From Oligoflexales bacterium (lineage in GTDB: Bacteria > Bdellovibrionota_B > Oligoflexia > Oligoflexales > Bog-1112): a stretch of DNA of 43,717 bases. This document shows positions 10,914 to 42,297 of this stretch, in pieces. The notes under the pieces are model-generated. The model saw only the letters and a list, made by a program, of their open reading frames with translations, was not told the origin of the DNA and did not search any database. Both the position numbers and the translations under genes were made by a program. The DNA is taken from positions 1-43,717 of the forward strand of contig JBGCDR010000095.1 in assembly GCA_045105515.1 (NCBI GenBank), read 5' to 3'. Position 1 is the first letter of the stretch; every line of letters starts with the position of its first letter.

Positions 10914-10942
10914 GTTAGTTCCTTTCGCTTCCTTAAGTACCT

Positions 10943-12160: not shown

Positions 12161-12172
12161 CTTAAACTACCT

Positions 12173-13462: not shown

Positions 13463-13513
13463 CTTATTTAAGTACCCAGAAATAAAACCTAAACTTTTCA
13501 CCTCGACACTTAC

Positions 13514-19210: not shown

Positions 19211-19852
19211 ATGGAAGAACTTACAGCCAGACAAAAGCAAGTATTCGACCTTATTAATAAGTACCTCGACGAGGGCGAAGCCTTCCCTTCTCTGCGTGAA
19301 ATCGCTGATGGACTTGGGGCACGCAACAAATCTGGCATGGTAGGACATCTTAAGGCACTCGAACGCAAGGGGTATATCCGCAAGCAGCAACGCAACGGCT
19401 ATTATGCTCTAGCCTCCCACTCAGCCCCGGTTTTTGGCCTCTATGAGGAGCATAGCTTGTTAAGCTTCCCCTTAGTTGCAGACATTCCTGCTGGGACTCC
19501 TTTAAATACCTACGAACAGTCCGATGAACACCTTATTTTTAGCCCTGACTATTTTGGGGGAGGCAGCCTCAAAGCTGTGAGCATTTCAGGCGACAGTATG
19601 GCTGGTGACCATATCAGCGATGGCGATATAGCCATTATCAAGCTCCAGAAGGATGTATCCTCACAAGACATTGTGGTCGTACGCGTAGACCGCGACGAAG
19701 TGACCTTAAAACGAGTCCGCTACCACGACGACTTGGTCGACCTCATTCCGTCCAATCCCCGCTATCAAGTCAAAAGTGTGCCAGCTGAAAGTGTTGAAAT
19801 AGTCGGTAAGCTCGTGGGTATTGTACGCAGAAGTCCTTCACTTAAAAAATAA
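19211..19852 (+). CDS. lexA: SOS repressor LexA
   Basis: LTARQ, PSLREIA and HLKALERKGYI wHTH motifs; IPAG cleavage site; catalytic GDSM Ser and VTLKR Lys. Confidence 0.95.
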   Translation: MEELTARQKQVFDLINKYLDEGEAFPSLREIADGLGARNKSGMVGHLKALERKGYIRKQQRNGYYALASHSAPVFGLYEEHSLLSFPLVADIPAGTPLNTYEQSDEHLIFSPDYFGGGSLKAVSISGDSMAGDHISDGDIAIIKLQKDVSSQDIVVVRVDRDEVTLKRVRYHDDLVDLIPSNPRYQVKSVPAESVEIVGKLVGIVRRSPSLKK

Positions 19853-19859
19853 AACAGGT

Positions 19860-20492
19860 ATGGGTCCGGATAAACAAACTCAAATTGCAAACTTAAAGCG
19901 TCGGCTCAACGACAACTGTAGTGCTAAGAGTGCAGCACAACGCCTCAGTAGCGGAACACCTCAGTTAGACCAAGCACTAGGGGGAGGTTTTGCCTTAGGA
20001 AGCCTATGTGAGTGGGGTATGCCACCTGGTAAGCAAGCACGGCAGCTGCTCATAAAACTTCTAGCTCACAACCAAGCACTCTGCCTATGGGTCTACCCGG
20101 ATCAAGACGATAGCCGAGTCTACCCTCCAGCTTGGGCGGCAAGGGGGGTTAATTTAAACCAGACTTATTTTGCGAAAAGCAGTTCTCCTTTGACAGAGTT
20201 GAGGCCTGCTTTTCTCGAACAAGTTTTCACTATCATTGTGATTGATAGCTTTTGCTGTCACGGTAAAGACGAATTAGCCTTTCTCAGCCGACAAGCTAGA
20301 GCCCTATCTGCGATCATATTCCTCCTGCGCCCTTATCTGCTAAGCCATACAAAAGGAAATCCATTCGCAAAAAATCGTTTAAATAGCTGGCTCAACTACC
20401 GCAATAGCACCTTCCATATTCACCTGTTGCGAGGGCACAGCCCGAAGAGCTTAAAAGTCCCCGCAGCTAAGAGGTCCTGTGAGCATGCATAA
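19860..20492 (+). CDS. imuA: ImuA-like (RecA-fold, degenerate Walker A) mutasome protein
   Basis: LSSGTPQLDQALGGG..LGSLCEW, VYPPAWAARGV and IVID motifs; sits between lexA and the imuB-like gene; ATG at 19860. Confidence 0.8.
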   Translation: MGPDKQTQIANLKRRLNDNCSAKSAAQRLSSGTPQLDQALGGGFALGSLCEWGMPPGKQARQLLIKLLAHNQALCLWVYPDQDDSRVYPPAWAARGVNLNQTYFAKSSSPLTELRPAFLEQVFTIIVIDSFCCHGKDELAFLSRQARALSAIIFLLRPYLLSHTKGNPFAKNRLNSWLNYRNSTFHIHLLRGHSPKSLKVPAAKRSCEHA

Positions 20493-21984
20493 GTCACCAC
20501 TCATCACCTTAAAGGCCTACGAAAAATCAAGAGACATTCCTAATTTTTTGGGAATTCATAGTACAGTAAGACAAAAACTTCCTGCTTATCTTTTTCAAGC
20601 ACTCAGCCCACATGTTATGGAATGGGAGCGAGGGATATGGATTTTCGACCTGAGATTCACCAAAAAGTTTTGGCAAACCCAAGCACGAATCCAAGGCATC
20701 TCAGGCCCAGCAATGATCGAACAAGTACTCGATGAGGATGATTGGCAGTACATAGGAATCTTTGCCAAACACCCCTGGCAGCTAGTTTACATGCTCACCG
20801 AAATTAAAGAACAAGCAAGCCCAGATAAGCGAGAGCTCATCCACCTTCAAGGCCCCTTCGGCCAATCACTACTCAAACAAGCTGGCTGGCCTGCATGGTT
20901 CGCAGCCTGCAAAACCCTATGCGCACATTGGGAAACAAAAGGCTCCAGACAATTTAAGGAGGATAGACTTGCAAGCAAGATCAGGCTCCTGCAAGCATCC
21001 ATGGATCGCCTAGGTGTTAAGGGCCCCAATCAACTACCAAGAAGCACCTTTGAGTCTATGAAGCGTCGTTTTGGCAGAAGCTTCGCAACTCTATGGGAAT
21101 GGAGCCTTTTAGAAGCAAGCCCAAACAAAAAACAAGCCCAAGGGCTATTCACCGCAGAGGAAGAGCAAGGCTTTGACTTCCCCTGGATCTTGTCAAAACC
21201 TCCTAAGACCCCAAAGGTTAAGCGTCACTTAGAAGACAGTCTGGTAGAGTGGGAGCATATAGAGCCTTTGCTTAAAGATGACTTTGACCGTCTTTGTCAG
21301 CATGAAGCCTGGAGTGAGGATGAAAGAGTTTGCAGCTTAACTTGGCTTATACAACTTTTTCACGGCAAGATCATCTGCCTGAACGTGAATTTTCGCAACC
21401 CGCATTCCCTGCATGGAGAGTATGGCGTACAGGATACTGCGACCCAGCAAGCCAGGTATGCCTACGAGTCCATGAGTCTGAAGCAAAAAGATCGCGAGGA
21501 CGACCTTGACCTCCCCGATGAAATTCCCTTAGTTTCATGGGAGCTTACTATAAAAGAAAAAATTGTAATTCCCCCTAAGCTAAGACGGCTCTTCAAGCAC
21601 TTTGAAGACCATAAGCACCCGAGCAATAAACTACTAAATTTAGAAAACAAACTGCACACTCCACTAGAGAGCTACAAACTCTTTGCCAGCTTTGATCCTA
21701 TGCAAGCTTTTATTCCCAAAGAGTCTGAACAGGAGGGTTGTGAGCAAGATAAAATCTGGAGTATTGCTGCTTCAGAACGTCCTCTCTACTTTTACGAACA
21801 AGCACAAATATTGCTACCGTCAAAGCACAGCTTCAAGTTTTTAGAGAGGACGAGCAAAAGCTGGTGGCAAGAAGGCAAGTTAGAAGACCGAGACTATTAC
21901 CTGGCTTTGGAACACAAGCAGCAGGTAGCTTATTGGGCCTTCAGAGTGCGAGAACAATGGTATAAGCATGGCATCTTCTCTTGA
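20479..21984 (+). CDS. imuB: Divergent ImuB-like inactive Y-family polymerase
   Basis: Synteny; LSPHV, RLGV..., RRFG; ImuB-type C-terminus RPL...ER....WW.....RDYY...W.F.....WY.HG.F. Confidence 0.72.
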   Translation: MSMHKSPLITLKAYEKSRDIPNFLGIHSTVRQKLPAYLFQALSPHVMEWERGIWIFDLRFTKKFWQTQARIQGISGPAMIEQVLDEDDWQYIGIFAKHPWQLVYMLTEIKEQASPDKRELIHLQGPFGQSLLKQAGWPAWFAACKTLCAHWETKGSRQFKEDRLASKIRLLQASMDRLGVKGPNQLPRSTFESMKRRFGRSFATLWEWSLLEASPNKKQAQGLFTAEEEQGFDFPWILSKPPKTPKVKRHLEDSLVEWEHIEPLLKDDFDRLCQHEAWSEDERVCSLTWLIQLFHGKIICLNVNFRNPHSLHGEYGVQDTATQQARYAYESMSLKQKDREDDLDLPDEIPLVSWELTIKEKIVIPPKLRRLFKHFEDHKHPSNKLLNLENKLHTPLESYKLFASFDPMQAFIPKESEQEGCEQDKIWSIAASERPLYFYEQAQILLPSKHSFKFLERTSKSWWQEGKLEDRDYYLALEHKQQVAYWAFRVREQWYKHGIFS

Positions 21985-24900
21985 AAAGTACGGTTGGCAT
22001 GAATGGCTGTGTAAGACAAACTTTTCTTTTTTGACAGGGGCGTCTCACCCACACGAACTGATTACGCGTGCAACAAAGGAACACTATGCCTCCTTATGCA
22101 TCAATGATTTTGATGGTGCTTACGGTTTAGCTCGCTGTTTTCTTGAGCACAAACGCATTTTAAGCACGAGCCAAACTCAGAATCCCAAACTACATTGTGG
22201 AGCCGAGATTCACCTTAGCAAGGACCACCATTTACCCATCCTGCTACAAGAGACTTTGGTTCTTGTAGTACAGACTTGGCAGGGTTATGCGAATCTATGT
22301 CATATTTTAACCAGGGCGCATAAAGATGGAAAAAATGATGCTTACATTAGCCTCGTAGAACTACTAACAAGTAATGTCGAGGGCCTTGTTGCCATCCAGC
22401 CTATGCGTGGGCTTATGCGTAGGGGGGCGACAACTGCAGCACACTTCGCAGCAATCCGGGATCATTTTAAACAGCGCTTTTACTTTGCTATTAGTCGCCA
22501 CCTGCACCCTGCAGAGGACTCATGGATTCAAGGAACGGTAGAACTGGCCAAAGAACTAGATACAGTATGCTTGTTAAGCCAGGATGCTTTCTTTCATCAC
22601 AGCAGTCGTGCCCATCTAAGTGACCTACTCCACAGCATTCGCCATAACCTTTGCTTAAGTGATGCGAGTAAACATCACTTTCCCAACCAAGAGCGCTACC
22701 TCCATAGCCTCCAGTCCCTCGAAGCTCGTTTTGCCGCTTTACCCTGTTACGAAAACTCATTACAGGCGTCTTATGAGCTTGCAAACACCTGTAACTTCCA
22801 ACTTTCTTCACTCCGTTATCACTACCCCCAAGAGATGATCCCTGAGGGCCACACTGCCCATAGCTTTCTGGAAACACTTACTTGGAAAGAAGCGAAAAAA
22901 AAGTTTGTCATAGTCGACTCAAAGCTCAGCACCCGGCTCACCTACGAGTTGAAGCTGATTGCAAAAATGAACTTTGCCGACTATTTCTTAACAGTATGGG
23001 ATATTGTCCACTGGGCTCGCTCCCAAGATATCCTCTGCCAAGGACGAGGCTCAGCTGCTAACTCAGCAGTCTGTTTTATCCTCGGTATCACAAGTGTCAA
23101 TCCCAGTAACTTCGATATGCTGTTTGAACGCTTTATCAGTTCCGAGCGTGGTGACCCTCCCGACATCGACGTAGACTTTGAGCATGAACGCAGGGAAGAA
23201 GTCATCCGCTACGTCTATGAACGCTATGGCAGAGACAAAGCGGCCATGGTTGCAAATGTGATCACCTTTCGCCGTAAGGGTGCATTACGTGCCGTAGGTA
23301 AAGCGCTGGGGATAGATGAAGGGACCATAAGCCTGTGCGCAAAGCTTTGCAAGAGCAAGATGTTAAGAGGCGGTGATGCTAAAGCCGTCATTGCGGAAGC
23401 ACGTAAAGAGATTGACGACAAGCGGCTAAACCCGATCACCTGGGACTTATGGGCTAGCCTAACAGAAGAATTAAGAGGTTTTCCTCGTCACCTCGGTATT
23501 CACTCTGGTGGGTTTATGATTTCTGCTATGCCTTTAAACCAGCTCGTTCCCAGGGAGCCAGCAAGCATGGAAGGGCGAACTGTCATCCAATGGTGCAAGG
23601 ATGACATTGAAGGCCTTGGATTCTTTAAGATCGACCTTTTATGCCTCGGTATGCTGACGGCAGTCCGCAAGGCATTCTCATATATTGAAGGCTCTTATGG
23701 AACTTTTTTAGAGCTCAGCAGCATTCCCCACAATGACTCTGCCACTTACAACATGATCCAGCAGGCTGAAACAGTAGGTACCTTTCAAATCGAATCACGC
23801 GCACAGATGACCATGCTTCCACGCCTCAGACCACGCTGCTTTTATGATCTGGTCATCGAGGTGGCTATCATCCGCCCCGGCCCCATTCAAGGTAAGGTTA
23901 TCAACCCCTACCTTAAGCGTCGGGGTGGCCTTGAAGCTGTATCCTACCCAGATCCTGTTCTCAAACCAATCCTGGCGAGAACACTGGGAGTTGCCATATT
24001 TCAAGAGCAAGCAATGCGTATTGCTGTCGAAGTGGGAAACTTTACCCCAGGTGAAGCTAATGAATTGCGCAAGAGCATAGGGGCTTGGAACGTCAAAGAC
24101 TTGTCACGTAATTTAAGCCCCTATCTAAAGAAATTATCAGAGGGTATGCGCCAAAATAATTATGACGAAGGATTCATCGCGCAAATACTTGGACAGATGC
24201 AAGGCTTCTCAGACTATGGTTTTCCCGAATCCCACGCAGTTTCATTTGCCTTAATCGCCTACGCGTCCAGCTATCTAAAATGCCACTATCCAGCAGCATT
24301 TTTTACAGCAGTGCTTAATTCGCAACCAATGGGTTTTTATTCCCCTCACTCACTGATCCAGACAGCAAAGAGAGATGGGGTCACGGTTCTTCCTATCTGC
24401 GTAAATGACTCACACTGGGACCATAAATTGGAGCTTTTACCTGCAAATCTAAAGCAGATAGAGCCCTGCTATGGAATCCGTCTGGGGCTTCGTTTAGTAC
24501 GCTCTTTACGCAAACAAGGGGCCTTACAACTAGTTAAAAATCGAAACCAAGAGCCCTTTGAAAATATGCAGGCATTTTTACAAAAAACACGGCTCGTACG
24601 CTCTGACCTCACTGCACTGGCTGCTGCTAATGCCTTTCAAGTATTTGGCCTATCACGTTTTGATGCAATTTGGATTTCGGAAGCTGCTCCCTTTCATCCT
24701 ATTCTTGAGGAAGAGGAAGATGCACTTAACTGGCCTGTGGAAGACCCCGTAGGACAAATGGAACGAGATTTTGCAGCCACAGGAACTTCTTTAGGGCCTC
24801 ATCCCACCACTATTTTTACACAAGGCTATTGGTCATATAAGCCTAAACTCACCAATATTCACTCTGCTGGGGACTTGCAGGCAAGCAAAAAAGGAAGCAA

Positions 24901-25237
24901 GGTCAGTGTATTTGGAATGATCCTTGTAAAGCAAGCTCCTCCTTCTGCCAAAGGCATGGTCTTTATTACCATAGAAGATGCAAGTGGCTTTATAAATCTG
25001 GTTTTTACCCCACAGTGTTATGAAAAGTATTATCAGGAAATTGAGACTGCCTTTTTCTTATGTGCCGATGGCATCCTGCAAAAAGCAGGTGAATATCGTT
25101 CCATCATGGTAGACAAAGTTCATACCCGCATAAAACCTAAAGCACAGGTGCAAAGTTTATTTGGAGACGAAGAGTATCAGGAGCAAACGGTACAAAAGGA
25201 AATCAAAGATTTGTTTGAACCTAGGAATTATTTTTAA
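21968..25237 (+). CDS. dnaE2: Error-prone DNA polymerase III alpha DnaE2 (ImuC)
   Basis: TNFSFLTGASHP PHP domain, GRGSAANS, PPDIDVDFEH, GFPRHLGIHSGG, FQIESRAQ and GFPESHA motifs; OB fold. Confidence 0.97.
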   Translation: MASSLEKYGWHEWLCKTNFSFLTGASHPHELITRATKEHYASLCINDFDGAYGLARCFLEHKRILSTSQTQNPKLHCGAEIHLSKDHHLPILLQETLVLVVQTWQGYANLCHILTRAHKDGKNDAYISLVELLTSNVEGLVAIQPMRGLMRRGATTAAHFAAIRDHFKQRFYFAISRHLHPAEDSWIQGTVELAKELDTVCLLSQDAFFHHSSRAHLSDLLHSIRHNLCLSDASKHHFPNQERYLHSLQSLEARFAALPCYENSLQASYELANTCNFQLSSLRYHYPQEMIPEGHTAHSFLETLTWKEAKKKFVIVDSKLSTRLTYELKLIAKMNFADYFLTVWDIVHWARSQDILCQGRGSAANSAVCFILGITSVNPSNFDMLFERFISSERGDPPDIDVDFEHERREEVIRYVYERYGRDKAAMVANVITFRRKGALRAVGKALGIDEGTISLCAKLCKSKMLRGGDAKAVIAEARKEIDDKRLNPITWDLWASLTEELRGFPRHLGIHSGGFMISAMPLNQLVPREPASMEGRTVIQWCKDDIEGLGFFKIDLLCLGMLTAVRKAFSYIEGSYGTFLELSSIPHNDSATYNMIQQAETVGTFQIESRAQMTMLPRLRPRCFYDLVIEVAIIRPGPIQGKVINPYLKRRGGLEAVSYPDPVLKPILARTLGVAIFQEQAMRIAVEVGNFTPGEANELRKSIGAWNVKDLSRNLSPYLKKLSEGMRQNNYDEGFIAQILGQMQGFSDYGFPESHAVSFALIAYASSYLKCHYPAAFFTAVLNSQPMGFYSPHSLIQTAKRDGVTVLPICVNDSHWDHKLELLPANLKQIEPCYGIRLGLRLVRSLRKQGALQLVKNRNQEPFENMQAFLQKTRLVRSDLTALAAANAFQVFGLSRFDAIWISEAAPFHPILEEEEDALNWPVEDPVGQMERDFAATGTSLGPHPTTIFTQGYWSYKPKLTNIHSAGDLQASKKGSKVSVFGMILVKQAPPSAKGMVFITIEDASGFINLVFTPQCYEKYYQEIETAFFLCADGILQKAGEYRSIMVDKVHTRIKPKAQVQSLFGDEEYQEQTVQKEIKDLFEPRNYF

Positions 25238-32675: not shown

Positions 32676-33680
32676 TTAGCGGCCAATGTTAGGCCAACCA
32701 CCTGAGAAAGAGAGGAATAAGTCAGATTTCAGTTGCTTAATATAAGCAGCTTCAACGGCTTTCAAGAGTTGTTCGCTTGGCCTTCCATTGTCTACAAACT
32801 TTTGACTCCATGACCTATAATTGTGATGCTCATCAACAATAGCATCATCAGAAAGCTGCTTTCTTTGCAAGGTCGACTCATATACTATCCGAACAATTAG
32901 CTCCTTAAAAATCACCATGCTTATACTTGTGGCTCTTACAATGTGCTCATTATACAGCAAGGGATCTAGATGTTCCGTTTCATGTCTTAGAAAATAATTT
33001 ACTTCGCTTCGTGACAATTCAGGGCACTGCTCATACAAGCCATCGGTTTCCCAAATAGTAGCTTGTCCATAGGGAAACCTAAAGCTTTTCTTTACTCCAA
33101 ATACTGGCACCTCCCACTTATTGACATCTTCTAAAAATCCTTGCGTTGGATCAACAATCCATCCCCTCCCTCCAACCCTAAAGACAGCTGCCACATGCCC
33201 TGGCTCGATAATGAAGGAATCACCTACCAGTCTTTTTCTATCTACCGCTATTTGTCCGATTGCATCCACACCCCATATTGCTGCTATATTCACAAGAAAA
33301 GCGGACCTATGAGCACAAGTATCAGCTCCTATAAGTGGGATTAGTTTCCCATTCAATTTTTTAAGTCGATTCTTATCAAAAAAATCACTTTCATCACCCT
33401 CATTAAAGGACATAAAAAATTTTCTAAACCTGGATAGCATACGATTAATTTTTCTGTCTTTTAATGATTGTTCAAAATCATCAAAAACAAAACTTGATAG
33501 CTTGTTAAAATCAGAAAAATCTTCTCGAGCTAGAGGATCAGTTTGTTCCAATTGATGGTTAAAGCGATCTATATTTTTTTTCCTTAAAGGACTAGAAGAA
33601 GCTTCTACTATACTTGAGTAGCTACTTAAAAGGACTAAAAGAGTAAATATTACTATAATATTACAGCAGTCTGCTTTCAT
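32676..33680 (-). CDS. Secreted protein with a putative transglutaminase/papain-like Cys-His-Asp triad
   Basis: Signal peptide; DTCAHRSAFL, PGHVAAVF and WIVDPTQG motifs. Confidence 0.65.
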   Translation of the reverse strand: MKADCCNIIVIFTLLVLLSSYSSIVEASSSPLRKKNIDRFNHQLEQTDPLAREDFSDFNKLSSFVFDDFEQSLKDRKINRMLSRFRKFFMSFNEGDESDFFDKNRLKKLNGKLIPLIGADTCAHRSAFLVNIAAIWGVDAIGQIAVDRKRLVGDSFIIEPGHVAAVFRVGGRGWIVDPTQGFLEDVNKWEVPVFGVKKSFRFPYGQATIWETDGLYEQCPELSRSEVNYFLRHETEHLDPLLYNEHIVRATSISMVIFKELIVRIVYESTLQRKQLSDDAIVDEHHNYRSWSQKFVDNGRPSEQLLKAVEAAYIKQLKSDLFLSFSGGWPNIGR

Positions 33681-33989: not shown

Positions 33990-34556
33990 TCATTGCCTCG
34001 TAAGAGCGGCATCAGTTGAATGGAGTTCAATCCATTCATCGCTCTTAACTTCATAGCAAGATCCTAAGCTACATTTACGCGGTTTGCTTGCGTTTCTTTC
34101 GCAATGATCAAGGCTATTTTCCTGAGCTTTGTCAAGCGAGAGTCCAAAACCGAAAAACCATGAGTCATAAAAACCAGCTTCACTGTTACATTCAAACTCT
34201 CCTCGATTCCAGTTCTGAATAACCCAACTAAAAATATTGCGACCACTGACATTCTCAAGATGAAACTGAATCCATCTATGACTTCGAACCTGGAGACAAG
34301 TCAAAGGCTTACATGTTTTTGGCCTTTTACTTTCCGAAAGACAAATATCCATTGCAGATTCGGCTGATTTTTGCCTCTCTTGATTCCAAGAATAATACCA
34401 AGTTTCTTTATTAAATCTTGATGATTTTATAATACACTCATGTCTGGGTTTATCCCAATGGTCCTCAATATACTCACTCCAATGAAAGGAGTTTGCATAA
34501 GATGTCTGACAGACCATTAAAATAAGTAGGTTTAATAAAACACCATTGAATTTCAT
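33990..34556 (-). CDS. Secreted Cys-rich protein with two internal repeats (DUF4189-like)
   Basis: GGAGG RBS before ATG 34556; signal SYA|N; two copies of EC....W....A...(A/S)..(D)C...(S)K.P..C...C. Confidence 0.7.
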   Translation of the reverse strand: MKFNGVLLNLLILMVCQTSYANSFHWSEYIEDHWDKPRHECIIKSSRFNKETWYYSWNQERQKSAESAMDICLSESKRPKTCKPLTCLQVRSHRWIQFHLENVSGRNIFSWVIQNWNRGEFECNSEAGFYDSWFFGFGLSLDKAQENSLDHCERNASKPRKCSLGSCYEVKSDEWIELHSTDAALTRQ

Positions 34557-35311
34557 GTGTCCTCCAAAAGAATTGTGACCCGTATTAAAACAGAAAGATT
34601 CAAGTGTAACATATTTCTTAATACCCATATATTTAGATAGTTATTCTTCCATATTCAAACTCCTTATTGAATATTTGACTAACAAATATCACCTTCCATT
34701 TTGCGGTATATTTGGAATCATTTGGAAATAGATAATTGAATAAAAGTCTATCGATTTTATAAATATGAAAACCCAAAAAAAATCTTTATATTTCCTAAAA
34801 CAAACATCATACAATTGAAATACTTTATTTTATAAATCTAGTGACCAGATTAAACATTCTCAGCGAGTACCACTATCTACAAATATCGATTTATCGTTTT
34901 TTAATCTAGATCAAATACCATCAAATATCAGTTTCAAAAAATTATATAAAAAAGTTTTAAAATATCATCATCCTAATCAAGCTCAATAAGACACTCAGCT
35001 CTACTTTACTGAATTTACTTATGTATTGCCTGTCATTTCGGCAAAGAACTCTTTTTTCATGCTAATTAACTAATTATTTTCAACAAAAATGAATATTTTT
35101 GGTTAAAAAAAATAGGCTGATATCACAAGGGAATTATATTTCTTGTGAAAACAGACAAAAAAATCATTGGACATTACTCAGGATTTTAAATTTTGTTTAA
35201 AGATTAAGTTAATAAATTAGAATCTGCTTTACAGAAATATTTTTCAAATGTTAGATGGATAATGATTTTTGATTTATTTTTTTTTATAAAAAAAATATTC
35301 GGGAGATAAAT

Positions 35312-35656
35312 ATGAGACCAGGTACGACGCTTGGAAAAATACCAATAATATTTTTGTTGATAAATTGTTGTTCGTGCATAAGTGGGATTCATTTGTTAGG
35401 AATTGATAAAGCAGGTGAGAAGGATCTGAAAGTAACGAAAAGCAAGTACTCGAAAAGAATAGGAGAAACTTTAGCAGATATTCATGACTCTGCTTTGGTA
35501 CCAGCAGATAAACTTTTCACCTCTAACGGCAACGAATGGAGAATTAAATGGTTCAATATAGGGATGGGAATTGAAGGAAAAGTAGGAATTGCAGGAGTCG
35601 CGACCTTGGCCGCAACTCCACGCATACGTCTATACTTTAGAAAAAAACAGAGATGA
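35312..35656 (+). CDS. Exported protein A, one helix-Trp-beta-hairpin module
   Basis: GGGAG RBS; hydrophobic, Cys-containing N-terminus; module WRIKWFNIGMGIEGKVGIAGVATLAATPRIRLYF. Confidence 0.72.
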   Translation: MRPGTTLGKIPIIFLLINCCSCISGIHLLGIDKAGEKDLKVTKSKYSKRIGETLADIHDSALVPADKLFTSNGNEWRIKWFNIGMGIEGKVGIAGVATLAATPRIRLYFRKKQR

Positions 35657-35671
35657 TAGGAGAATTTAAAC

Positions 35672-37039
35672 ATGTTTAAATTAAGATTAAAAAAATTGGT
35701 ATATGTGATTGTCCTATTTTTAGGTGTACCTTATTTTGGCACCATTCTCGCAAATCAAAGCCAATTTACTTCAGATGCTAGTATGCCAAAGAGCTGGTAT
35801 ATGCTGCCTGAGGACTTGAATAATAAAGATTATCTCGGAAATGAATGGGAAGACCCAGATAGCGATTTTGAAGAAGAAGTAGATGATCTTTTTGAAGCAC
35901 AAGGAGACTCATACGACAAGTTAATAGAGGAAAGCAGATATGCAAACAAATCGCTTAGTAACTGGGAACTTTGGGTGATTAGGTCCCAGCTCGCGATCTC
36001 AGCTGGTGGCTCCATTGGGGTGTTAGCCTTAAAAGGACAGGTGGCTACCGAAATTCGTTGGTTCAAAAAATCCACCATTAAATCCGAGAATGATAGGGCT
36101 TCATTAGAAGAATCAGCTGCTGCAAATTTTTCTTGGGATACACCCCAACCAGACATTGACAATACTCTAGAGAAGATCGCCACAACAGCATACCGCGCTG
36201 GCAAGGTCAGGAATAGAACACTGATGCTGAAAGGATTGAAAGATGGCGTAGAAAAAGCTAGGACAATGCTCCGTTCAGTTCCTGAGACCTCCATATATGC
36301 ATGGTCGCCTTACCGTTTTCGCTTGAGGTTTTCGTTCGCTGCATCGGGTCAGCCTATATCTTTTTTCGAAGTCGGCGGAACAGTGACTATTCGCTTCGAC
36401 TTCGAGGTAAAGCCTTCACATCTAAAATCAAACAAGAATAAAAACTATTCACCTCGTGACATATTAGCCGCTGAGTCTTTTGCCAGATTAGTTAGTTCTT
36501 TTAGCGAGGACATGGGAGTTTTCGTACAACGAGAACCATTTGGATCAAGTTGGAAAACAAAAAACTTTCAAATAATTATTGGTCAAGCGGCATCTGGGAG
36601 CGTAGGAGTAGCGAAACTAAAAGGAGTACTTTCTGGACGCCTATATTTTAAGAGAAATAGCGAAAAAAGTGAGAAAGTATTTATGAGAGATTTACCTGAG
36701 GGAGCAAGCTTTGACTACATTACTGACGAATTTAACAAAAACCTAGTCAATTATGCTAAGTCTAATCAAATTAAAAGCATTCCTGTTCAACTTGATGGCC
36801 CATTAACCAAATCAGGGACAATCTATAAGATCGATAGAAGACGCTTTAGAAAAGGCTTAGTAAAAGCTGAAAAAATGGCGAGGTTTTTCACCAAGAGAGC
36901 TTCTAAGAACAAACAAGAATACTGGAAACTCAAAGAGCTTCGCACTGAGTATAAGCTTTCGCTCGGAGGAAGCGTTGGAATTGCCAAGCTAACAGGCTTT
37001 GGTGAGGTAAGAGTCGAATACACAAATGTAAATTGGTAA
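35672..37039 (+). CDS. Exported protein B, four helix-Trp-beta-hairpin modules
   Basis: AGGAG RBS; signal peptide; repeats start at W98, W211, W294 and W418. Confidence 0.85.
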   Translation: MFKLRLKKLVYVIVLFLGVPYFGTILANQSQFTSDASMPKSWYMLPEDLNNKDYLGNEWEDPDSDFEEEVDDLFEAQGDSYDKLIEESRYANKSLSNWELWVIRSQLAISAGGSIGVLALKGQVATEIRWFKKSTIKSENDRASLEESAAANFSWDTPQPDIDNTLEKIATTAYRAGKVRNRTLMLKGLKDGVEKARTMLRSVPETSIYAWSPYRFRLRFSFAASGQPISFFEVGGTVTIRFDFEVKPSHLKSNKNKNYSPRDILAAESFARLVSSFSEDMGVFVQREPFGSSWKTKNFQIIIGQAASGSVGVAKLKGVLSGRLYFKRNSEKSEKVFMRDLPEGASFDYITDEFNKNLVNYAKSNQIKSIPVQLDGPLTKSGTIYKIDRRRFRKGLVKAEKMARFFTKRASKNKQEYWKLKELRTEYKLSLGGSVGIAKLTGFGEVRVEYTNVNW

Positions 37040-37060
37040 TTATTACCTTGGAAGGAAAAA

Positions 37061-37432
37061 ATGAATTTTCACAAGTCAATAGTAATTATACTACTTATGT
37101 TTTCACTGACTGAGTTAAGTTTCGCTGATAGCGACGATGATACTAGATCTAATTCTAGAAAAAAAATGAGGGCCTATTTTAGTGCTGTCTTTAGTACTAT
37201 GAAAGGACTTAATTCCAGACCATCTCACATGATGAGCGATATGGAATATTCTGAGGCAGATATACCAGATCTTGATTATTTTAAAGAAAAATCTGTATTT
37301 GACTTAAATCAGGATTGGTTTTTAAAAGCTTTTTTAATTAGAGTTCGTCCTTCTTTTGGCTTTGACTTGCCAGGAACATGGTCTCTTAAAATTGTTCCTG
37401 AGGCAGAGGTTTATTGGATGCAACCGAAGTGA
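37061..37432 (+). CDS. Exported protein C, one helix-Trp-beta-hairpin module
   Basis: AAGGA RBS; signal SFA|D; module WFLKAFLIRVRPSFGFDLPGTWSLKIVPEAEVYW. Confidence 0.78.
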   Translation: MNFHKSIVIILLMFSLTELSFADSDDDTRSNSRKKMRAYFSAVFSTMKGLNSRPSHMMSDMEYSEADIPDLDYFKEKSVFDLNQDWFLKAFLIRVRPSFGFDLPGTWSLKIVPEAEVYWMQPK

Positions 37433-37452: not shown

Positions 37453-40400
37453 CTATCTACCTTGATTTGAATTTTTAATTCCTTCATTGATGAGGATAGA
37501 TCCTCCTGAAATCAAGCTAGCTCCAACACCAAAATACAAAGCTCCAAGACCTTTGAATGCAGCCTTATTTATGTGAGTTGTATGCCTATTAATATTGATA
37601 ACTGGGCGCTTATATTGGGATCTTGCTAAAATAGGATTCATTCTTTGCGGCACAACTGTTGGAGCTTCCCCAATTTTTTTTGCTTCGGATCTAGCTGTTT
37701 CTAGATCTGTTAGCAGACTCTTGTTACGCACCTGAGCTTCATTTAACTCATTAGCAATCTTTTTATTTCTAGCCTGACTTTCTTCTAAACGAGTTTGTAA
37801 TTCCTCCCACCTTGAATTATTCATTTGTGACTTCTTCATTGAGGCTATATCAGATTTCGCTGCACCTAACTGTTCAGTAAGATCAATATTATGTTGCCTG
37901 AAAGTCGCTCTTTCTTGTTCTAAGCGTGTAACTTTAGCCCTAATATTTGAATCTTCCTTTTTCAATAAATTTATCCTCGTGTTCGCATCCTGAAGCTTTC
38001 CCTCAATATCATTGTATTTTCTCAATGTTGCCAATGACTTATTAAGTTCGGCTTGTAATTTCTGTATTTGTCTTTGCTTACCAATTGAATCCTTATTGGC
38101 TTGACTCAACTTATCATTCAAATCTTTTAAATCACGCTCAATTTCCAACTTTTCAACCTGCAAGGCCTTTTCTTTACTAGAGAATTCCCTTGCAGAAACC
38201 TGCATTTTTTCTTCTAAATCTGAAACTTTTTGCTTGAGTTGACCTTCTGCATCAGCTTTATTTTGAATTTGCTCCTTGAGCCGATTTATTTCACTTTTAG
38301 CTTTTTTCTCGCTGATCTGAAAATCAGTTTCCAAGCTTTGTATTTTCTTAGAAAGCAATATTGACTCCGCCTCACCGCTAGCAATCCTTTGTTGTAGCTT
38401 GCGATTGTCCTCTTCGGACTGTTCAAATTGAGCTGAACGTTTTCTGGCTGATTCAAGCTGCTTTCTAAAGCTCTCAATCTCTTTTTCATGCTGTAAATCC
38501 CTTTTATCAAACTCCCGGGATAATTGATCTAAGCTTTTCTGACGGAGCGCTATATCATCCTTTACTTGCCCTAACTCTTGTTCTTTAGTTTTAAGATCAG
38601 TGCGTATTTGAGTCGAAATTTGCCTTTCATCATCTAGATGTCCCTGAACTTTAGACATTTGTTCAATCTGATCTCTAAGGGCTTCAAGCTTATTCTGATT
38701 TCTAGACAACTCTTGGTTTAAAGCTACCACTTCACTAGATTTTGGCCTATTTTCAAGAGCGGTTTGTAAATCACTTATTGCAAGTTCTTTTGTCTCTAAA
38801 TTTTGCTCAAGTTGATTTTTTTCTTCCTGTGTCGGACTTTGACTTAATCGCTGATTCAGGCCATTGATCTTTGTCAGGAGCAATTGTATTTCCTTTAGCA
38901 TTCTGCTAGACTCTACATCTTTAAATTCAATTTCTATCGACTTAACAAAGTTTGAGCTTTCGGACTGTGCCTTTTTTAGTTGGGCAAACAAAAATCTAAT
39001 ATTCTCTCTAAATTCTGTGAGTTCTTGCAGATCTTCCCGCAACCTATTATTCTCTAATTCCAAAATAATTGCCTTTCGTAACTGTATATGAACTCTATCT
39101 AATTCTTCGTTTAGTTTTACCAAACGTCTGAGTTGGCTTTCTTGGACAGAATTTGAATTTCGGATAACTACCTTGCTTTTTTGAATTTCTTTACCAAGGT
39201 TTCTCTGAGTTTCTTGCAAAGATCTTATCTTATTATCACGGCTTGCTAAATCTGTTTCAAGCTTACTATTTAGATCATCCATAGCTTTATCGTGAATAGC
39301 AGTCAATTGATTTTGCTTAGCCTTCAGCTCTTCATTGCTAGACTGCAACTGTCGATTTACTTGCTCCAAACCTTCTTTTTCTCCACTGCTTAGCTCTGTT
39401 AAGTTTCTAAGCTTTGTCTCCAAGCCACGAGAGGTATCTTGTAAGTCTGTGTATTCATTTTGTAGTTTTTGATTAGCAATTTGTTTTTCCTGTAAATCTT
39501 TAAGATATTTATTTAATTGGTTAATTTCTTGCTCAGAAGCAAGCTTTCCAGTTTCCAGAGCGCTAATTTTCTTTTGTAATTCTTGTATATCTCTAGCATG
39601 TTGATTCTCTAGTGTAGACAAGGAATCTTTATAGATTTCATCTTTTCTTAAAAGTTGTTTTTGTAGTTCATCTAATAGGTCTACATTTGCAGTTTTGCTG
39701 TTTTTCTCTTCTAGGTTGGATCGATTTAAATCTTCAAGCTGTTCACTCAATACTTGCCTTTCAGCTACTAATTTCTCTAGTTGGTCTTGCATCATCAGTC
39801 TTTCACTTTCAACCAGAAAAACATCCCGCCAAATAGCCTCAGCATTGGCCTCTAAAGAAACCCCTCTTTTTCTTCTTTGAGTCATATAGTCAAGCATATC
39901 CCCTGAAATACCTGACCTTGAACGATCCATTTGTGACTGTTCTACAAGCAACTCTGCACTCTCTGGTTCTAAACTATAAGCATTAATCTTGCCCAAATAA
40001 TTGAAGAAGTCTGCCACTGATTTTTGTGCCACTTGTTGAGGTCTATCTGCCGTGCTGATGTAATTGCCTGCACGGAGATTAGACGCATGCACCACTCCCA
40101 CACCGGTAGAGGTAGCCTTAAAAAGAGCCACTACATTGCTACGCAAACCGAGAAGTCGTAAGGCTTCATCATTTGGCACCGGTTTACCTGCAAAAATTTC
40201 CAGAAAAGTTTTAAACTCACCAAGTTTAAATCCATCAACACTAAGATTGAACCCTTGTTTTGATAGTCCGGTCATATAATATTTAATTCTTGAATCTAAT
40301 TTTCCGATTTCGGCCTCTTGATAATTTTGAGGTATAGAGAAATTAAAACCATCGCGTTTGACCAAGACTTGCCGTTGTTCATCAGGAAGGCTATTGTAAT

Positions 40401-42297
40401 TATAATATAGTATTTTTTCAATTATATCGGGATCTTCTAATATTTTCTTGGCAATTTCAAGATCAAATATTCCTTTAAGGGACTGACGTTCAATAAGATC
40501 CAAATAGCCAATAGTTCCAAGGTCAATCATACCAATCTTTTTAACATCAGTCTTACTACCCTCTTCATGTAGCTCAATCCTGATATTTCCTTCATGCAAA
40601 TCTCCATGAAAATAGTTGCCAGAGAACATGCCTTGAAAGTGTATATCCATAAGCTTCTGCAAAGAATTCTGAATCTGAATTCTTTGATTTGAAGAAATAC
40701 GCGAATGGTTTTTTGGATCATTAAACCATTTTAAATCATAGCCTAAAGATTTTTCCTGAATATTAAACCGGGAAGCTATTTTTTCACGCTTTTCAAGGTC
40801 TGGGACTAGCTCTGAGCTTACAACAGCTGCATCTATAGTATTTCCTGATATAACAGTTATTTCACCTACTTTCTTATTATTTTGACGAAAAATTGTATTA
40901 TACGAACTAACTTTTTCTCCATTTTCCACCTCTGCTGCAAGGTCAGTTTCTGCTAGGAACTCATCTATTTCATCAACTTTTATCTGCCACTCATCTCGCA
41001 ATCTTCTCCTATACTCATCACCCATCCCAGCATCAAGCACATCGCGGGGGTAGCTAATTCCCTGACCGGCATCAATATTCTGAATTACAGCCAGATATTT
41101 ACCTTTATCATCTAAAAGACTGGCAATGACTTCATCAGGAACCCATTTTACGATTTTGTTTTCATGGTTTTCAAAAACAATCCCCAAGCTCCCTGCCTGC
41201 AAAACTCGTGAACCTTCACCTAAGATCTGTGGAATCAGTTTTCTAGCTCTTTCCAAAAACATTTCAGACTCACTAGGACTTAGATTTCTTGCTTGTGATT
41301 TCTTCAAAAAACCTTGTACATCTTCTTTTAAGGCAATTTTCATTGAATTAATGCGACTATATTCTTGTTGTATTTTTTTTATTATATAGGGACCAAATAC
41401 ACTACGATTCTCAACCATAGCTTCCATAAGTACTGAGAAAGGAATTTTTCTAGCCGCTTCTTTGCGAAAAATTTGCCCCTTCAAAAAAGCCAAACTATCA
41501 TCAGTTTTTATCTGGTCTTGAATGGTTTGATACAATGCTAGCTTTTGCTCATAGTTAAGCTCTTTACTATACCGTAGCAGTTCATCACGCAAGGTTCGCT
41601 TAATTGGTTTATACTCTGGTGAGGGATCATCTACCCTAAAACCATGATTTTGAAGAATATCAGAAGGATCAAAGTCACCGATGTTAAAACGGCTTTTAAA
41701 ATCTTCTAGATAACTATTTGGAATAGTATATTGAGCTTTTAGCAATTTTTCAAACTGATCTAAACTTGAGACCGAACCAAGCTTTTTAAAAAGGATTTTT
41801 ATGTTCTTAGGATTTTCATGATTTTGTTCTTTAGAAAGGCGGGTTACAACGTAATGTCCGTAGTTATCCTCTGGAATTATACCCTTTTCACTTACCAGCT
41901 CAATAGCCTTTTGTTTCAGGACTGCTAATGGGTTCAATTCTATCCAAAGCCGTTCTTGTACTTTTTCGATCTTGAATTTATTCAATCCTCCACGGCTATT
42001 AGAACTTAGATAATCAGTTGCTTTGAATAAAGAAGGAACTTGCTCAGCTTTATTTTTAGCGATATGCTCAGGCTTTATAAATGGATTTAAGCGGTCATTT
42101 TCAATACCATTAAGCAATTGTGAGTCTGGCGCTTCGGGATCTAAGCTAATTAAACGATCTAGTTGTTCAAGTGGACTCAAGTAAAAACCAAGCGAATTAC
42201 TAGAACGAATAGGGCGTTTAATCTCTTTAGTTTTACAAGAACTGGTGCCTATTAGTATCACTGGGACTAGCAATATTAAATACACGGTTTGCACCAT
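37453..42297 (-). CDS. Giant lipoprotein: UbiB/ABC1-like atypical kinase domain, ~700-aa coiled coil, C-terminal hydrophobic segment
   Basis: Lipobox-like TSSC; GPYIIKKIQ, QAGSLG, IVKW, ETDLAAEVEN, FHGDLHEGNI and MIDLG motifs; heptad-rich E/K/Q/L region. Confidence 0.8.
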   Translation of the reverse strand: MVQTVYLILLVPVILIGTSSCKTKEIKRPIRSSNSLGFYLSPLEQLDRLISLDPEAPDSQLLNGIENDRLNPFIKPEHIAKNKAEQVPSLFKATDYLSSNSRGGLNKFKIEKVQERLWIELNPLAVLKQKAIELVSEKGIIPEDNYGHYVVTRLSKEQNHENPKNIKILFKKLGSVSSLDQFEKLLKAQYTIPNSYLEDFKSRFNIGDFDPSDILQNHGFRVDDPSPEYKPIKRTLRDELLRYSKELNYEQKLALYQTIQDQIKTDDSLAFLKGQIFRKEAARKIPFSVLMEAMVENRSVFGPYIIKKIQQEYSRINSMKIALKEDVQGFLKKSQARNLSPSESEMFLERARKLIPQILGEGSRVLQAGSLGIVFENHENKIVKWVPDEVIASLLDDKGKYLAVIQNIDAGQGISYPRDVLDAGMGDEYRRRLRDEWQIKVDEIDEFLAETDLAAEVENGEKVSSYNTIFRQNNKKVGEITVISGNTIDAAVVSSELVPDLEKREKIASRFNIQEKSLGYDLKWFNDPKNHSRISSNQRIQIQNSLQKLMDIHFQGMFSGNYFHGDLHEGNIRIELHEEGSKTDVKKIGMIDLGTIGYLDLIERQSLKGIFDLEIAKKILEDPDIIEKILYYNYNSLPDEQRQVLVKRDGFNFSIPQNYQEAEIGKLDSRIKYYMTGLSKQGFNLSVDGFKLGEFKTFLEIFAGKPVPNDEALRLLGLRSNVVALFKATSTGVGVVHASNLRAGNYISTADRPQQVAQKSVADFFNYLGKINAYSLEPESAELLVEQSQMDRSRSGISGDMLDYMTQRRKRGVSLEANAEAIWRDVFLVESERLMMQDQLEKLVAERQVLSEQLEDLNRSNLEEKNSKTANVDLLDELQKQLLRKDEIYKDSLSTLENQHARDIQELQKKISALETGKLASEQEINQLNKYLKDLQEKQIANQKLQNEYTDLQDTSRGLETKLRNLTELSSGEKEGLEQVNRQLQSSNEELKAKQNQLTAIHDKAMDDLNSKLETDLASRDNKIRSLQETQRNLGKEIQKSKVVIRNSNSVQESQLRRLVKLNEELDRVHIQLRKAIILELENNRLREDLQELTEFRENIRFLFAQLKKAQSESSNFVKSIEIEFKDVESSRMLKEIQLLLTKINGLNQRLSQSPTQEEKNQLEQNLETKELAISDLQTALENRPKSSEVVALNQELSRNQNKLEALRDQIEQMSKVQGHLDDERQISTQIRTDLKTKEQELGQVKDDIALRQKSLDQLSREFDKRDLQHEKEIESFRKQLESARKRSAQFEQSEEDNRKLQQRIASGEAESILLSKKIQSLETDFQISEKKAKSEINRLKEQIQNKADAEGQLKQKVSDLEEKMQVSAREFSSKEKALQVEKLEIERDLKDLNDKLSQANKDSIGKQRQIQKLQAELNKSLATLRKYNDIEGKLQDANTRINLLKKEDSNIRAKVTRLEQERATFRQHNIDLTEQLGAAKSDIASMKKSQMNNSRWEELQTRLEESQARNKKIANELNEAQVRNKSLLTDLETARSEAKKIGEAPTVVPQRMNPILARSQYKRPVININRHTTHINKAAFKGLGALYFGVGASLISGGSILINEGIKNSNQGR

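What the first reader, a model, noticed from the sequence alone, without database searches (positions are those of the whole stretch)
35312..37432. Three-gene operon of exported proteins built from six copies (1+4+1) of one helix-Trp-beta-hairpin module: candidate heteromeric beta-barrel or pore system
Seen: three tightly linked genes (15 and 21 bp gaps), each with an RBS and a signal-like N-terminus. All share a ~65-aa module: an amphipathic helix, a Trp, then two ~15-residue alternating strands joined by a Gly-rich turn. The copies are A WRIKWFNIGMGIEGKVGIAGVATLAATPRIRLYF; B1 WELWVIRSQLAISAGGSIGVLALKGQVATEIRWF; B2 WSPYRFRLRFSFAASGQPISFFEVGGTVTIRFDF; B3 WKTKNFQIIIGQAASGSVGVAKLKGVLSGRLYF; B4 WKLKELRTEYKLSLGGSVGIAKLTGFGEVRVEY; C WFLKAFLIRVRPSFGFDLPGTWSLKIVPEAEVYW. 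B itself looks like a duplicated two-module unit. By eye the module resembles the helix-plus-long-hairpin Trypco/Pepco protease-co-occurring domains of conflict systems, but those are cytoplasmic and protease-linked, while these are exported and have no adjacent trypsin or caspase. Inference: six hairpins (12 strands) per A:B:C set could close a barrel or oligomerise into an outer-membrane channel or secreted beta-pore toxin. I recognise no described system with this layout.
Basis: partly seen in the sequence, partly recalled or inferred. Interest (0 to 1): 0.75.

Follow-up and report, generated by a model that had tools for sequence, protein, structure and literature searches.

The report
Exported tandem Pepco-like barrel-module operon
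Three linked genes of a probable Bdellovibrionota bacterium encode exported proteins built from repeated copies of the Pepco helix-hairpin module, a module recently shown to form pore-making beta-barrels in anti-phage defence, here without the usual protease partner.

Summary
The three ORFs, their 15- and 21-bp gaps, RBS-like sites and signal-like N-termini are real. A is probably a lipoprotein (invariant Cys22).

Profile comparison confirms five of the six claimed module copies. The four B modules align in all 6 pairings (94-97%). A aligns with B1 and B3 (91%). C is unproven: window C is not significant, and its Oligoflexales orthologue matches only weakly. The "duplicated two-module unit" is not supported.

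A, B and C hit no Pfam family. But B belongs to a family of 426 clusters, and of the 90 members I scanned, 55 match Pfam Pepco, 38 above the curated cut-off, at all four module positions.

A 2025 preprint shows that Pepco forms 9-10-mer beta-barrel pores gated by a protease. Here the modules are exported, fused four in a row, lack long C-terminal tails and have no trypsin or caspase neighbour.

Every relative with a taxon name is Bdellovibrionota, and gene order is kept in the one related locus I could fetch.

My reading is an envelope-located heteromeric Pepco-type barrel or pore. Co-assembly could not be tested. This is a new variant of a known kind.

The parts
35312..35656 (+). Gene A, 114 aa: small exported single-module protein, probable lipoprotein
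   Evidence: ORF. RBS-like GGGAG upstream. 4 orthologues plus the window's own entry, and one more in L001.
35312..35377 (+). A signal peptide ending at the invariant Cys22 (lipobox-like S-C-x-S-G)
   Evidence: S21, C22, S24 and G25 are invariant in 6 of 6 orthologues. The -3 position is not the canonical Leu, so the lipoprotein call is an inference.
35450..35647 (+). A module (residues 47-112): helix region, Trp76, long hairpin
   Evidence: hhalign against B1 P 91%, E 1e-6, 65 columns; against B3 P 91%, E 1.2e-6. Pooled B-module HMM 26-27 bits, 0 of 2000 shuffles.
35672..37039 (+). Gene B, 455 aa: exported protein with four tandem Pepco-like modules
   Evidence: ORF. AF2 pLDDT 87.2, pTM 0.87. 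Family of 426 clusters. Pepco in 55 of 90 scanned members.
35672..35752 (+). B signal peptide (residues 1-27)
   Evidence: Hydrophobic 12-residue window with mean KD 2.68 after a basic n-region. 83 of 90 family members pass the same heuristic.
35783..35815 (+). Conserved motif at the start of mature B (consensus LPxxWYxLPE), function unknown
   Evidence: P39, W42 and E47 are invariant or >=90% conserved in the 90-sequence alignment. The motif follows the signal peptide in most members. Block pLDDT 93.
35855..36070 (+). Module B1 (residues 62-133): helix 64-90, hairpin 98-132
   Evidence: DSSP of the AF2 model. hhalign against B2, B3 and B4 P 96.7-96.8%.
36143..36409 (+). Module B2 (residues 158-246): helices 159-175 and 182-200, hairpin 211-245
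   Evidence: P 94-97%.
36452..36655 (+). Module B3 (residues 261-328): helix 261-286, hairpin 294-328
   Evidence: The only pairwise BLAST hit to A: 38% identity over 39 aa, E 1.7e-4.
36659..36823 (+). Insert between B3 and B4 (residues 330-384): small strand-helix-strand-strand unit; its last strand (380-388) runs on into the start of module B4
   Evidence: DSSP E346-351, H356-364, E369-374, E380-388. Not part of the repeat.
36824..37027 (+). Module B4 (residues 385-452): helix 389-411, hairpin 418-452; only 5 residues follow the conserved aromatic (Tyr450) that ends the hairpin
37061..37432 (+). Gene C, 123 aa: exported small protein; possible very divergent module
   Evidence: ORF. RBS-like site. 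2 orthologues plus the window's own entry, and one more in L001.
37316..37417 (+). C Trp-hairpin candidate (residues 86-119) with conserved prolines in place of the Gly-rich turn
   Evidence: W86, P97, G100, P104, G105 and P113 are invariant in 4 of 4 sequences. Not significant against the B modules in the window copy; the L001 orthologue aligns weakly and colinearly.

Best explanation
The operon encodes an envelope-located, hetero-oligomeric assembly of Pepco-superfamily helix-hairpin modules.

Shown:
- All three proteins carry Sec-type signal sequences.
- B is four covalently linked Pepco-like modules.
- A is a single module of the same kind, with a conserved lipoprotein-type Cys.
- The A-B-C gene order is conserved in the one related locus I could fetch.

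Inferred by analogy with the characterised Streptomyces Pepco:
- After export, the long hairpins pair edge to edge into a beta-barrel wall. One face of the strands is hydrophobic and the other charged, and the amphipathic helices lie at the membrane interface. The result is a membrane pore or channel.
- A probably tethers or nucleates the assembly on a membrane.
- C is probably a divergent terminal or capping unit.
- The terminal modules lack the roughly 20-residue inhibitory tail of defence Pepco, and no trypsin or caspase is nearby. So control would come from export to another compartment rather than from proteolytic licensing.

Which membrane is targeted is open. I lean slightly to the producer's own outer membrane or periplasmic face, because of the lipid anchors, over a prey membrane.
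For: - Family link to Pepco: 55 of 90 B-family members match PF24393 at E<=0.01, and 38 of 90 reach the 27-bit cut-off (9 of 20, 29 of 69, window B 0).
- By approximate position, the best stretches fall in module 1 (6), module 2 (13), module 3 (20) and module 4 (16).
- These members are full-length homologues of window B (E 1e-31 to 1e-228).
- A close relative, P0005 (45% identical by BLASTP), itself hits Pepco at E 7.7e-4.
- Internal repeats and A.
- Four helix-plus-hairpin units in a confident model.
- Export: 83 of 90; invariant Cys in A.
- Tails of 5, 5 and 4 residues after the last aromatic of A, B4 and C.
- Strand faces are split into hydrophobic and charged for several strands, as described for the SsPepco model.
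- Pepco forms SDS-resistant 9-10-mer barrels and pores.
- The same A-B-C order occurs in an Oligoflexales MAG. B and C homologues share a longest-contig length of 20199, and A and B homologues share 2006, which suggests co-location.
Against: - None of A, B or C matches Pepco or Trypco directly, nor do the A orthologues. The link is transitive.
- No test of co-assembly was possible.
- The monomer model of B is compact and confident (pTM 0.87), so the four hairpins may be satisfied within one chain, with no need of partners or a membrane.
- C is not demonstrably a module.
- Only some strands alternate significantly.
- Foldseek finds no pore-former or OMP resembling B.
- Whether the wider family also has A- and C-like neighbours is unknown.
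Confidence: 0.5

Rival explanations
1. Predation or competition weapon: the same exported Pepco-type barrel, delivered from the predator's surface into a prey cell's membrane to permeabilise it.
For: - Every relative with a taxon name is Bdellovibrionota: 4 named clusters among 20 looked up, plus the Oligoflexales locus.
- Tail-less Pepco is toxic to E. coli.
- Predator proteins entering prey inner membranes is a known theme (PopA paper, PMC12228718).
Against: - The lipid anchor on A, and on about 14 of 90 B-family members, argues for retention rather than release.
- No secretion-system genes lie next to the operon.
- Not all Bdellovibrionota or Oligoflexia are known predators (recalled).
- There are no expression data.
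Confidence: 0.2
2. Not a pore: B is a soluble or lipid-tethered periplasmic alpha/beta repeat protein whose four hairpins form one intramolecular sheet, acting as a scaffold, binding protein or envelope stabiliser. A and C are accessory paralogues or chaperone-like partners.
For: - High-confidence compact monomer model (pTM 0.87).
- Weak or absent alternation in half of the strands.
- No OMP or pore-former hit by sequence or fold.
Against: - Homology to a module whose characterised member forms barrels.
- Conservation of two extra small partners in the same operon.
- 37 of 90 family members end in an aromatic residue, as barrel proteins often do.
Confidence: 0.22
3. Protease-gated defence or death effector like canonical Pepco, with the protease encoded nearby but unrecognised, for example the exported 334-aa protein at 32676-33680.
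For: - Atlas feature hits for that neighbour are all transglutaminase-like clusters (0.88-0.89; 10 of 10 best hits with a family share one clan).
- Kaur et al. note rare transglutaminase-like peptidases in such systems (PMC7159879, passage).
Against: - Atlas scores below 0.9 are only leads. Pfam, NCBIfam and PDB searches give nothing.
- That gene is divergent and separated from the operon by another gene.
- A, B4 and C have no long C-terminal tail to remove.
- No PADLOC match, and no STAND or sensor gene is adjacent.
Confidence: 0.05

Closest known systems
Pepco (Pfam PF24393), as characterised for Streptomyces subrutilus SsPepco (Evans et al. 2025, bioRxiv 10.1101/2025.11.14.688446)
   Same: - Helix followed by a long beta-hairpin of similar size.
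- HMM-level homology for the B family.
- Hydrophobic and charged strand faces.
- Expected side-by-side hairpin assembly.
   Different: - SsPepco is a single 117-aa cytoplasmic protein that forms homo-9/10-mers. It sits next to a trypsin-like Avs4 and is gated by removal of a 2-kDa C-terminal tail after Ile97.
- Here there are four fused modules plus separate small partners, all exported, one lipid-anchored.
- Here the tails are 4-5 residues, and no trypsin, caspase or STAND gene is adjacent.
Trypco1 / Trypco2 (Kaur et al. 2020, eLife, PMC7159879)
   Same: - 9 of 90 B-family members match Trypco1 at E<=0.01, 2 of them above its 24.6-bit cut-off.
- The preprint treats these names as the same kind of protein as Pepco.
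   Different: Trypco1/2 are defined by co-occurrence with trypsin-like peptidases in vWA-MoxR/VMAP conflict systems. None of that context is present here.
Composite beta-barrels built from several chains or repeats: TolC, trimeric autotransporters, bicomponent leukocidins (recalled, not tested)
   Same: The idea of a barrel wall contributed by several hairpin-bearing units, some on different polypeptides.
   Different: No sequence or fold similarity was found. The module type is different.
PopA of Bdellovibrio bacteriovorus (PMC12228718)
   Same: An oligomeric, unconventional envelope beta-protein of predatory bacteria, reported to enter prey inner membrane.
   Different: PopA is a 16-stranded single-chain barrel that forms pentamers. 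It is unrelated: the profile search of PDB sequences with the B family gave no significant hit.

Membership tests
Pepco (PF24393) / Trypco superfamily | Direct match of the window's proteins to the Pfam model at or above the gathering score | tested here: not met
   A, B and C have 0 families at E<=1. The 6 A orthologues give no Pepco hit.
Pepco (PF24393) / Trypco superfamily | Homology through full-length relatives that do match the model | tested here: met
   - 55 of 90 members at E<=0.01, and 38 of 90 at >=27 bits.
- Matches fall in all four module positions.
- The relatives are E 1e-31 or better to the B profile.
Pepco (PF24393) / Trypco superfamily | Architecture: N-terminal (amphipathic) helix plus one long beta-hairpin per unit | tested here: met
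   AF2 DSSP of B shows four such units. 3 of 5 helices are significantly amphipathic.
Pepco (PF24393) / Trypco superfamily | Neighbouring trypsin-like or caspase-like protease, often fused to a sensor | tested here: not met
   No such domain in any ORF of 100 aa or more in the window. There is only an unverified transglutaminase-like lead two genes upstream.
Pepco (PF24393) / Trypco superfamily | Charged, Pro-rich C-terminal tail of about 20 residues, removed after a conserved Ile, to activate | tested here: not met
   Only 5, 5 and 4 residues follow the last aromatic of the hairpin in A, B4 and C. The boundary is judged from the model and alignments.
Pepco (PF24393) / Trypco superfamily | Cytoplasmic protein (no signal peptide) | tested here: not met
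   Signal-like N-termini in A, B and C and in 83 of 90 family members.
Pepco (PF24393) / Trypco superfamily | Self-assembly into a denaturation-resistant 9-10-mer barrel; membrane permeabilisation | not testable with these tools
Needs biochemistry.
Classical BAM-dependent outer-membrane beta-barrel proteins | Single-chain closed barrel, match to an OMP family, and a C-terminal beta-signal ending in an aromatic residue | tested here: inconclusive
   - No OMP family in Pfam or NCBIfam, and no OMP fold hit.
- B ends in Trp, and 37 of 90 relatives end in F, W or Y against 8.6% background.
Known beta-pore-forming toxins (aerolysin, haemolysin/leukocidin, MACPF/CDC) | Sequence or fold similarity to a family member | tested here: not met
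   - Pfam: none.
- PDB profile search: best E 0.25.
- Foldseek PDB: best E 0.036, TM <=0.15 in the rows shown.

The most novel reading that the evidence does not exclude
A phylum-wide (Bdellovibrionota) class of protease-independent, Sec-exported Pepco barrels. Four hairpin modules are fused in one chain and completed by a lipoprotein module and a proline-bearing cap. They self-assemble without BAM into a heteromeric membrane pore. This would be either the predator's long-sought prey-membrane pore or a new kind of outer-membrane channel, and a living example of a beta-barrel wall built by concatenating hairpin repeats.
Probability: 0.2. Interest if true: 0.85.

Novelty: new variant of a known kind. 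Interest (0 to 1): 0.66.

Why it matters
Pepco was shown to be a pre-assembled beta-barrel toxin of anti-phage systems only in late 2025. An exported, tandem-fused, heteromeric version with no protease would matter in four ways.

- It would show the same module reused outside immunity, in the cell envelope of a phylum rich in bacterial predators.
- It would show an alternative safety mechanism, compartment instead of cleavage.
- It would offer a natural concatemer for dissecting how hairpin number sets barrel size.
- It would bear on the idea (recalled: Remmert et al. 2010) that membrane barrels arose by amplification of beta-hairpins.

If it acts on prey membranes, it would be a candidate for the poorly defined step in which predators breach or permeabilise prey.

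Tried and rejected
- **Complex prediction** of B+A+C was answered "not available".
- **AlphaFold2 of C alone** (4-sequence alignment) gave pLDDT 43.5 and no hairpin, which is uninformative.
- **Foldseek of the B model** found nothing at E<=0.001 against PDB or BFVD. The GFP-like rows have TM 0.06-0.12 and mean nothing.
- **PDB profile search:** best E 0.25.
- **ESM Atlas for B:** scores 0.82-0.83 and TM <=0.24, no lead.
- **Other libraries:** plasmid tblastn found no match. PADLOC gave 0 families for the 8 proteins scanned: A, B, C, three Pepco-positive relatives and two neighbours.
- **Promoter and terminator scan:** 8 and 2 sites against 11.5 and 1.8 expected, so no signal.
- **Two-module duplication:** rejected.
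- **Leptospira origin:** I considered it early, from a weak LIC10729 hit and the LRR genes. I dropped it once the relatives proved to be Bdellovibrionota.
- **Wider gene neighbourhoods:** I could not examine them for the 426 clusters.
- **Hits not seen or left out:** only the best 150 of the 426 hits were listed. I aligned 87 of those, leaving out 63 that were fragments or two-stretch matches (including the truncated P0002). I added P0001 and P0005 plus the window protein.
Full report
**What is there**

Three ORFs lie head to tail on the + strand: A 35312-35656 (114 aa), B 35672-37039 (455 aa) and C 37061-37432 (123 aa). The gaps are 15 and 21 bp. Purine-rich RBS-like sites lie 6-10 nt before each start. 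Consensus promoter and terminator scans show no more sites than shuffles do, so the single-operon reading rests on spacing and on conserved order.

All three proteins begin with a basic stretch followed by a hydrophobic stretch. In A, Ser21-Cys22-x-Ser24-Gly25 is invariant in 6 of 6 orthologues. That suggests lipoprotein processing, although position -3 is not canonical (inference). The 111-aa database version of C starts at an internal Met that would remove the signal. The RBS and the orthologues favour the 123-aa start.

**The repeat**

Pairwise BLAST among the three window proteins finds only A(73-111) against B(291-328), 38% identity, E 1.7e-4. By eye the repeat is suggestive, but by pairwise statistics it is weak. 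Profiles settle most of it.

- Using a 90-sequence alignment of the B family (A2), I cut four sub-alignments by residue number: 62-133, 158-246, 261-328 and 385-452.
- All six pairs align at 94-97% probability, E 1.2e-10 to 1.4e-7, over 42-67 columns.
- The A family (6 sequences) aligns with B1 (91%, E 1e-6, 65 columns) and B3 (91%, E 1.2e-6). It aligns less well with B4 (E 5e-4) and B2 (E 0.022).
- A pooled HMM built from the 360 B modules alone scores all six A orthologues at 20.7-27.7 bits. 0 of 2000 shuffles of mature A reach its score.

C is different.

- Against B1-B4 it gives E 0.002-0.23, and against A E 0.1.
- Against the pooled HMM the window's C scores 1.5 bits, and 128 of 2000 shuffles do as well.
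- The Oligoflexales orthologue of C scores 8.5 bits (0 of 2000 shuffles). It aligns colinearly from the Trp to the terminal aromatic pair.
- C keeps the Trp and two strands of the right length, but it has invariant prolines where the other modules have the Gly-rich turn.
- Folding C alone failed (pLDDT 43.5, 4 sequences).

So 1+4 copies are confirmed and the sixth is plausible but unproven.

The suggestion that B is a duplicated two-module unit is not supported. The B1~B3 plus B2~B4 pairing scores best in only 21 of 90 proteins, against 37 and 32 for the alternatives.

**Structure**

AlphaFold2 of B with the 90-sequence alignment is confident (mean pLDDT 87.2, pTM 0.87). It gives four units of helix followed by a long hairpin:

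- H64-90 with E102-132
- H159-200 with E211-245
- H261-286 with E294-328
- H389-411 with E418-452

There is also a small strand-helix-strand-strand insert at 346-388. The tool does not return coordinates, so I cannot say whether the four hairpins form one open sheet.

Three of five helices are significantly amphipathic. Clear hydrophobic/charged alternation shows in B2 (both strands) and in the second strands of A and C. Nothing in the PDB or BFVD resembles the whole model.

**What family**

A, B and C match nothing in Pfam or NCBIfam at E<=1. The word-indexed search found only 5 relatives of B. The exhaustive HMMER search with their profile found much more: 426 clusters at E<=1e-3, with 359 at <=1e-10 and 157 at <=1e-30. 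Most of the 150 listed are 420-480 aa and match end to end.

I scanned 90 of them against Pfam (the window protein, 87 of the 150 listed, and two).

- 55 match Pepco (PF24393) at E<=0.01, best 1.8e-14. 9 match Trypco1.
- Per-protein tables show 38 of 90 at or above the 27-bit curated cut-off.
- By approximate position, the best stretches fall in module 1 (6), module 2 (13), module 3 (20) and module 4 (16).
- They cover profile positions of roughly 30-105 of 112.
- One close relative of the window protein (P0005, 45% identical by BLASTP) reaches E 7.7e-4 in module 4.

**What Pepco is**

Kaur et al. 2020 (PMC7159879; passages read) named Trypco1 and Trypco2 as genes that co-occur with trypsin-like peptidases in conflict systems.

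Evans et al. 2025 (bioRxiv 10.1101/2025.11.14.688446; abstract, passages and all of section 8 read) report the following:

- Pepco is "also called Trypco1 and Trypco2".
- It is a 117-aa protein that constitutively forms heat- and SDS-resistant nonameric or decameric beta-barrels.
- Their AlphaFold2-multimer structural models show a charged lumen, a hydrophobic exterior and amphipathic helices at the base.
- It becomes a pore-forming toxin when an adjacent Avs4 trypsin-like protease removes a 2-kDa C-terminal tail after Ile97.
- A construct ending exactly at Ile97 kills E. coli.

Their supplements could not be read here.

**How this locus differs**

- *Export.* 83 of 90 family members pass a signal-peptide heuristic, and about 14 of 90 have a lipobox-like site. 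A conserved LPxxWYxLPE motif follows the signal.
- *Fusion.* Four modules sit in one chain, with separate one-module partners.
- *No long tail.* Only 5, 5 and 4 residues follow the last aromatic residue of A, B4 and C.
- *No trypsin, caspase, STAND or other defence gene nearby*.
- *Taxonomy.* Every relative with a taxon name is Bdellovibrionota. That covers Bdellovibrionia, Bdellovibrionaceae/Bdellovibrionales and Bdellovibrionota MAGs in 4 named clusters of the 20 looked up, plus the only hit among 185,579 species genomes, an Oligoflexales MAG.
- *Conserved order.* That Oligoflexales locus has the same A-B-C order (112, 446 and 114 aa), next to an IS-type transposase fragment.

**Mechanism**

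I think the likeliest reading is an envelope-located heteromeric Pepco-type barrel. In this reading, the proteins are exported unfolded and the hairpins pair edge to edge. A tethers the assembly to a membrane. C, with prolines in its strands, may terminate or cap the sheet. Safety comes from compartment rather than from proteolysis.

Arithmetic speculation only: two B chains plus two A chains would give 10 hairpins, the size of the SsPepco decamer.

Which membrane is targeted is open. The lipid anchors and a frequent C-terminal aromatic residue (37 of 90) lean towards the producer's own outer membrane. The phylum and the toxicity of tail-less Pepco keep a prey-directed role alive. The PopA paper (PMC12228718; abstract and passages) recalls that a predator outer-membrane protein is reported to enter prey inner membrane; Tudor & Karp 1994 and Barel et al. 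2005 were seen only in its reference list.

The main rival is that B's compact, confident monomer is a self-sufficient periplasmic repeat protein and no pore at all.

**Novelty**

My searches were Pepco/Trypco1, Trypco variants, Pepco with beta-barrel, signal peptide and tandem, and Bdellovibrio with pore-forming. None found a paper describing exported, tandem or Bdellovibrionota Pepco proteins. I rate this a new variant of a known kind.

Noticed in passing
window 32676-33680 (-): Exported 334-aa protein two genes upstream of A, on the opposite strand. By eye it has a Cys...His...Asp arrangement. All the Atlas feature hits with a family are transglutaminase-like clusters (0.88-0.89, below the 0.9 bar), and the structure rows include arylamine N-acetyltransferase and Transglut_core (TM 0.31-0.35). 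Pfam, NCBIfam and PDB give nothing significant. This is a possible thiol peptidase near a Pepco-type operon, as an unverified lead.
   Followed up: partly
window 37453-42297 (-): 1614-aa protein convergent on C, 20 bp after its stop. It has a lipoprotein-like N-terminus, a weak kinase-like stretch (APH, E 0.17, residues 514-601), about 700 residues with SMC-like coiled-coil matches, and a Gly-rich hydrophobic C-terminus. Any link to the operon is unknown.
   Followed up: partly
window 33990-34628 (-): Exported 212-aa protein made of two similar Cys-containing halves, with a weak DUF4189 match (E 0.0066, below cut-off).
   Followed up: no
window 35783-35815 (B residues 38-48) and the B family: A strongly conserved LPxxWYxLPE motif directly after the signal peptide in most of the 90 family members. 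The model is confident there. Its function is unknown: perhaps a sorting or docking element.
   Followed up: partly
B family C-termini (alignment A2): 37 of 90 members end in F, W or Y (31 in Phe) against 8.6% aromatic background, many with a F-x-N-x-N-F type ending. This is reminiscent of an outer-membrane-protein C-terminal signal, but it is not universal.
   Followed up: partly
window 19211-25237 (+): LexA (S24 peptidase plus LexA DNA-binding domain), followed by three ORFs that end with a DnaE-type polymerase of 1089 aa. This looks like a LexA-ImuA-ImuB-DnaE2 SOS mutagenesis cassette; the names for the two middle ORFs are recalled, not tested.
   Followed up: no
window 7396-13501 (-): A 611-aa leucine-rich-repeat protein with a C-terminal DUF5684, next to two large proteins carrying N-terminal prepilin-type methylation motifs.
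   Followed up: no
L001 2655-3188 (-): In the Oligoflexales MAG the A-B-C operon is followed by a fragment that looks like an IS256-type transposase (family name recalled, not tested). The contig is only 3188 bp, so the operon may sit near mobile DNA there.
   Followed up: no
P0025 (B-family member), residues 262-296: 1 of 90 members gives a weak match to the Pfam Amphi-Trp domain (E 0.0051) over the helix-Trp part of module 3.
   Followed up: no
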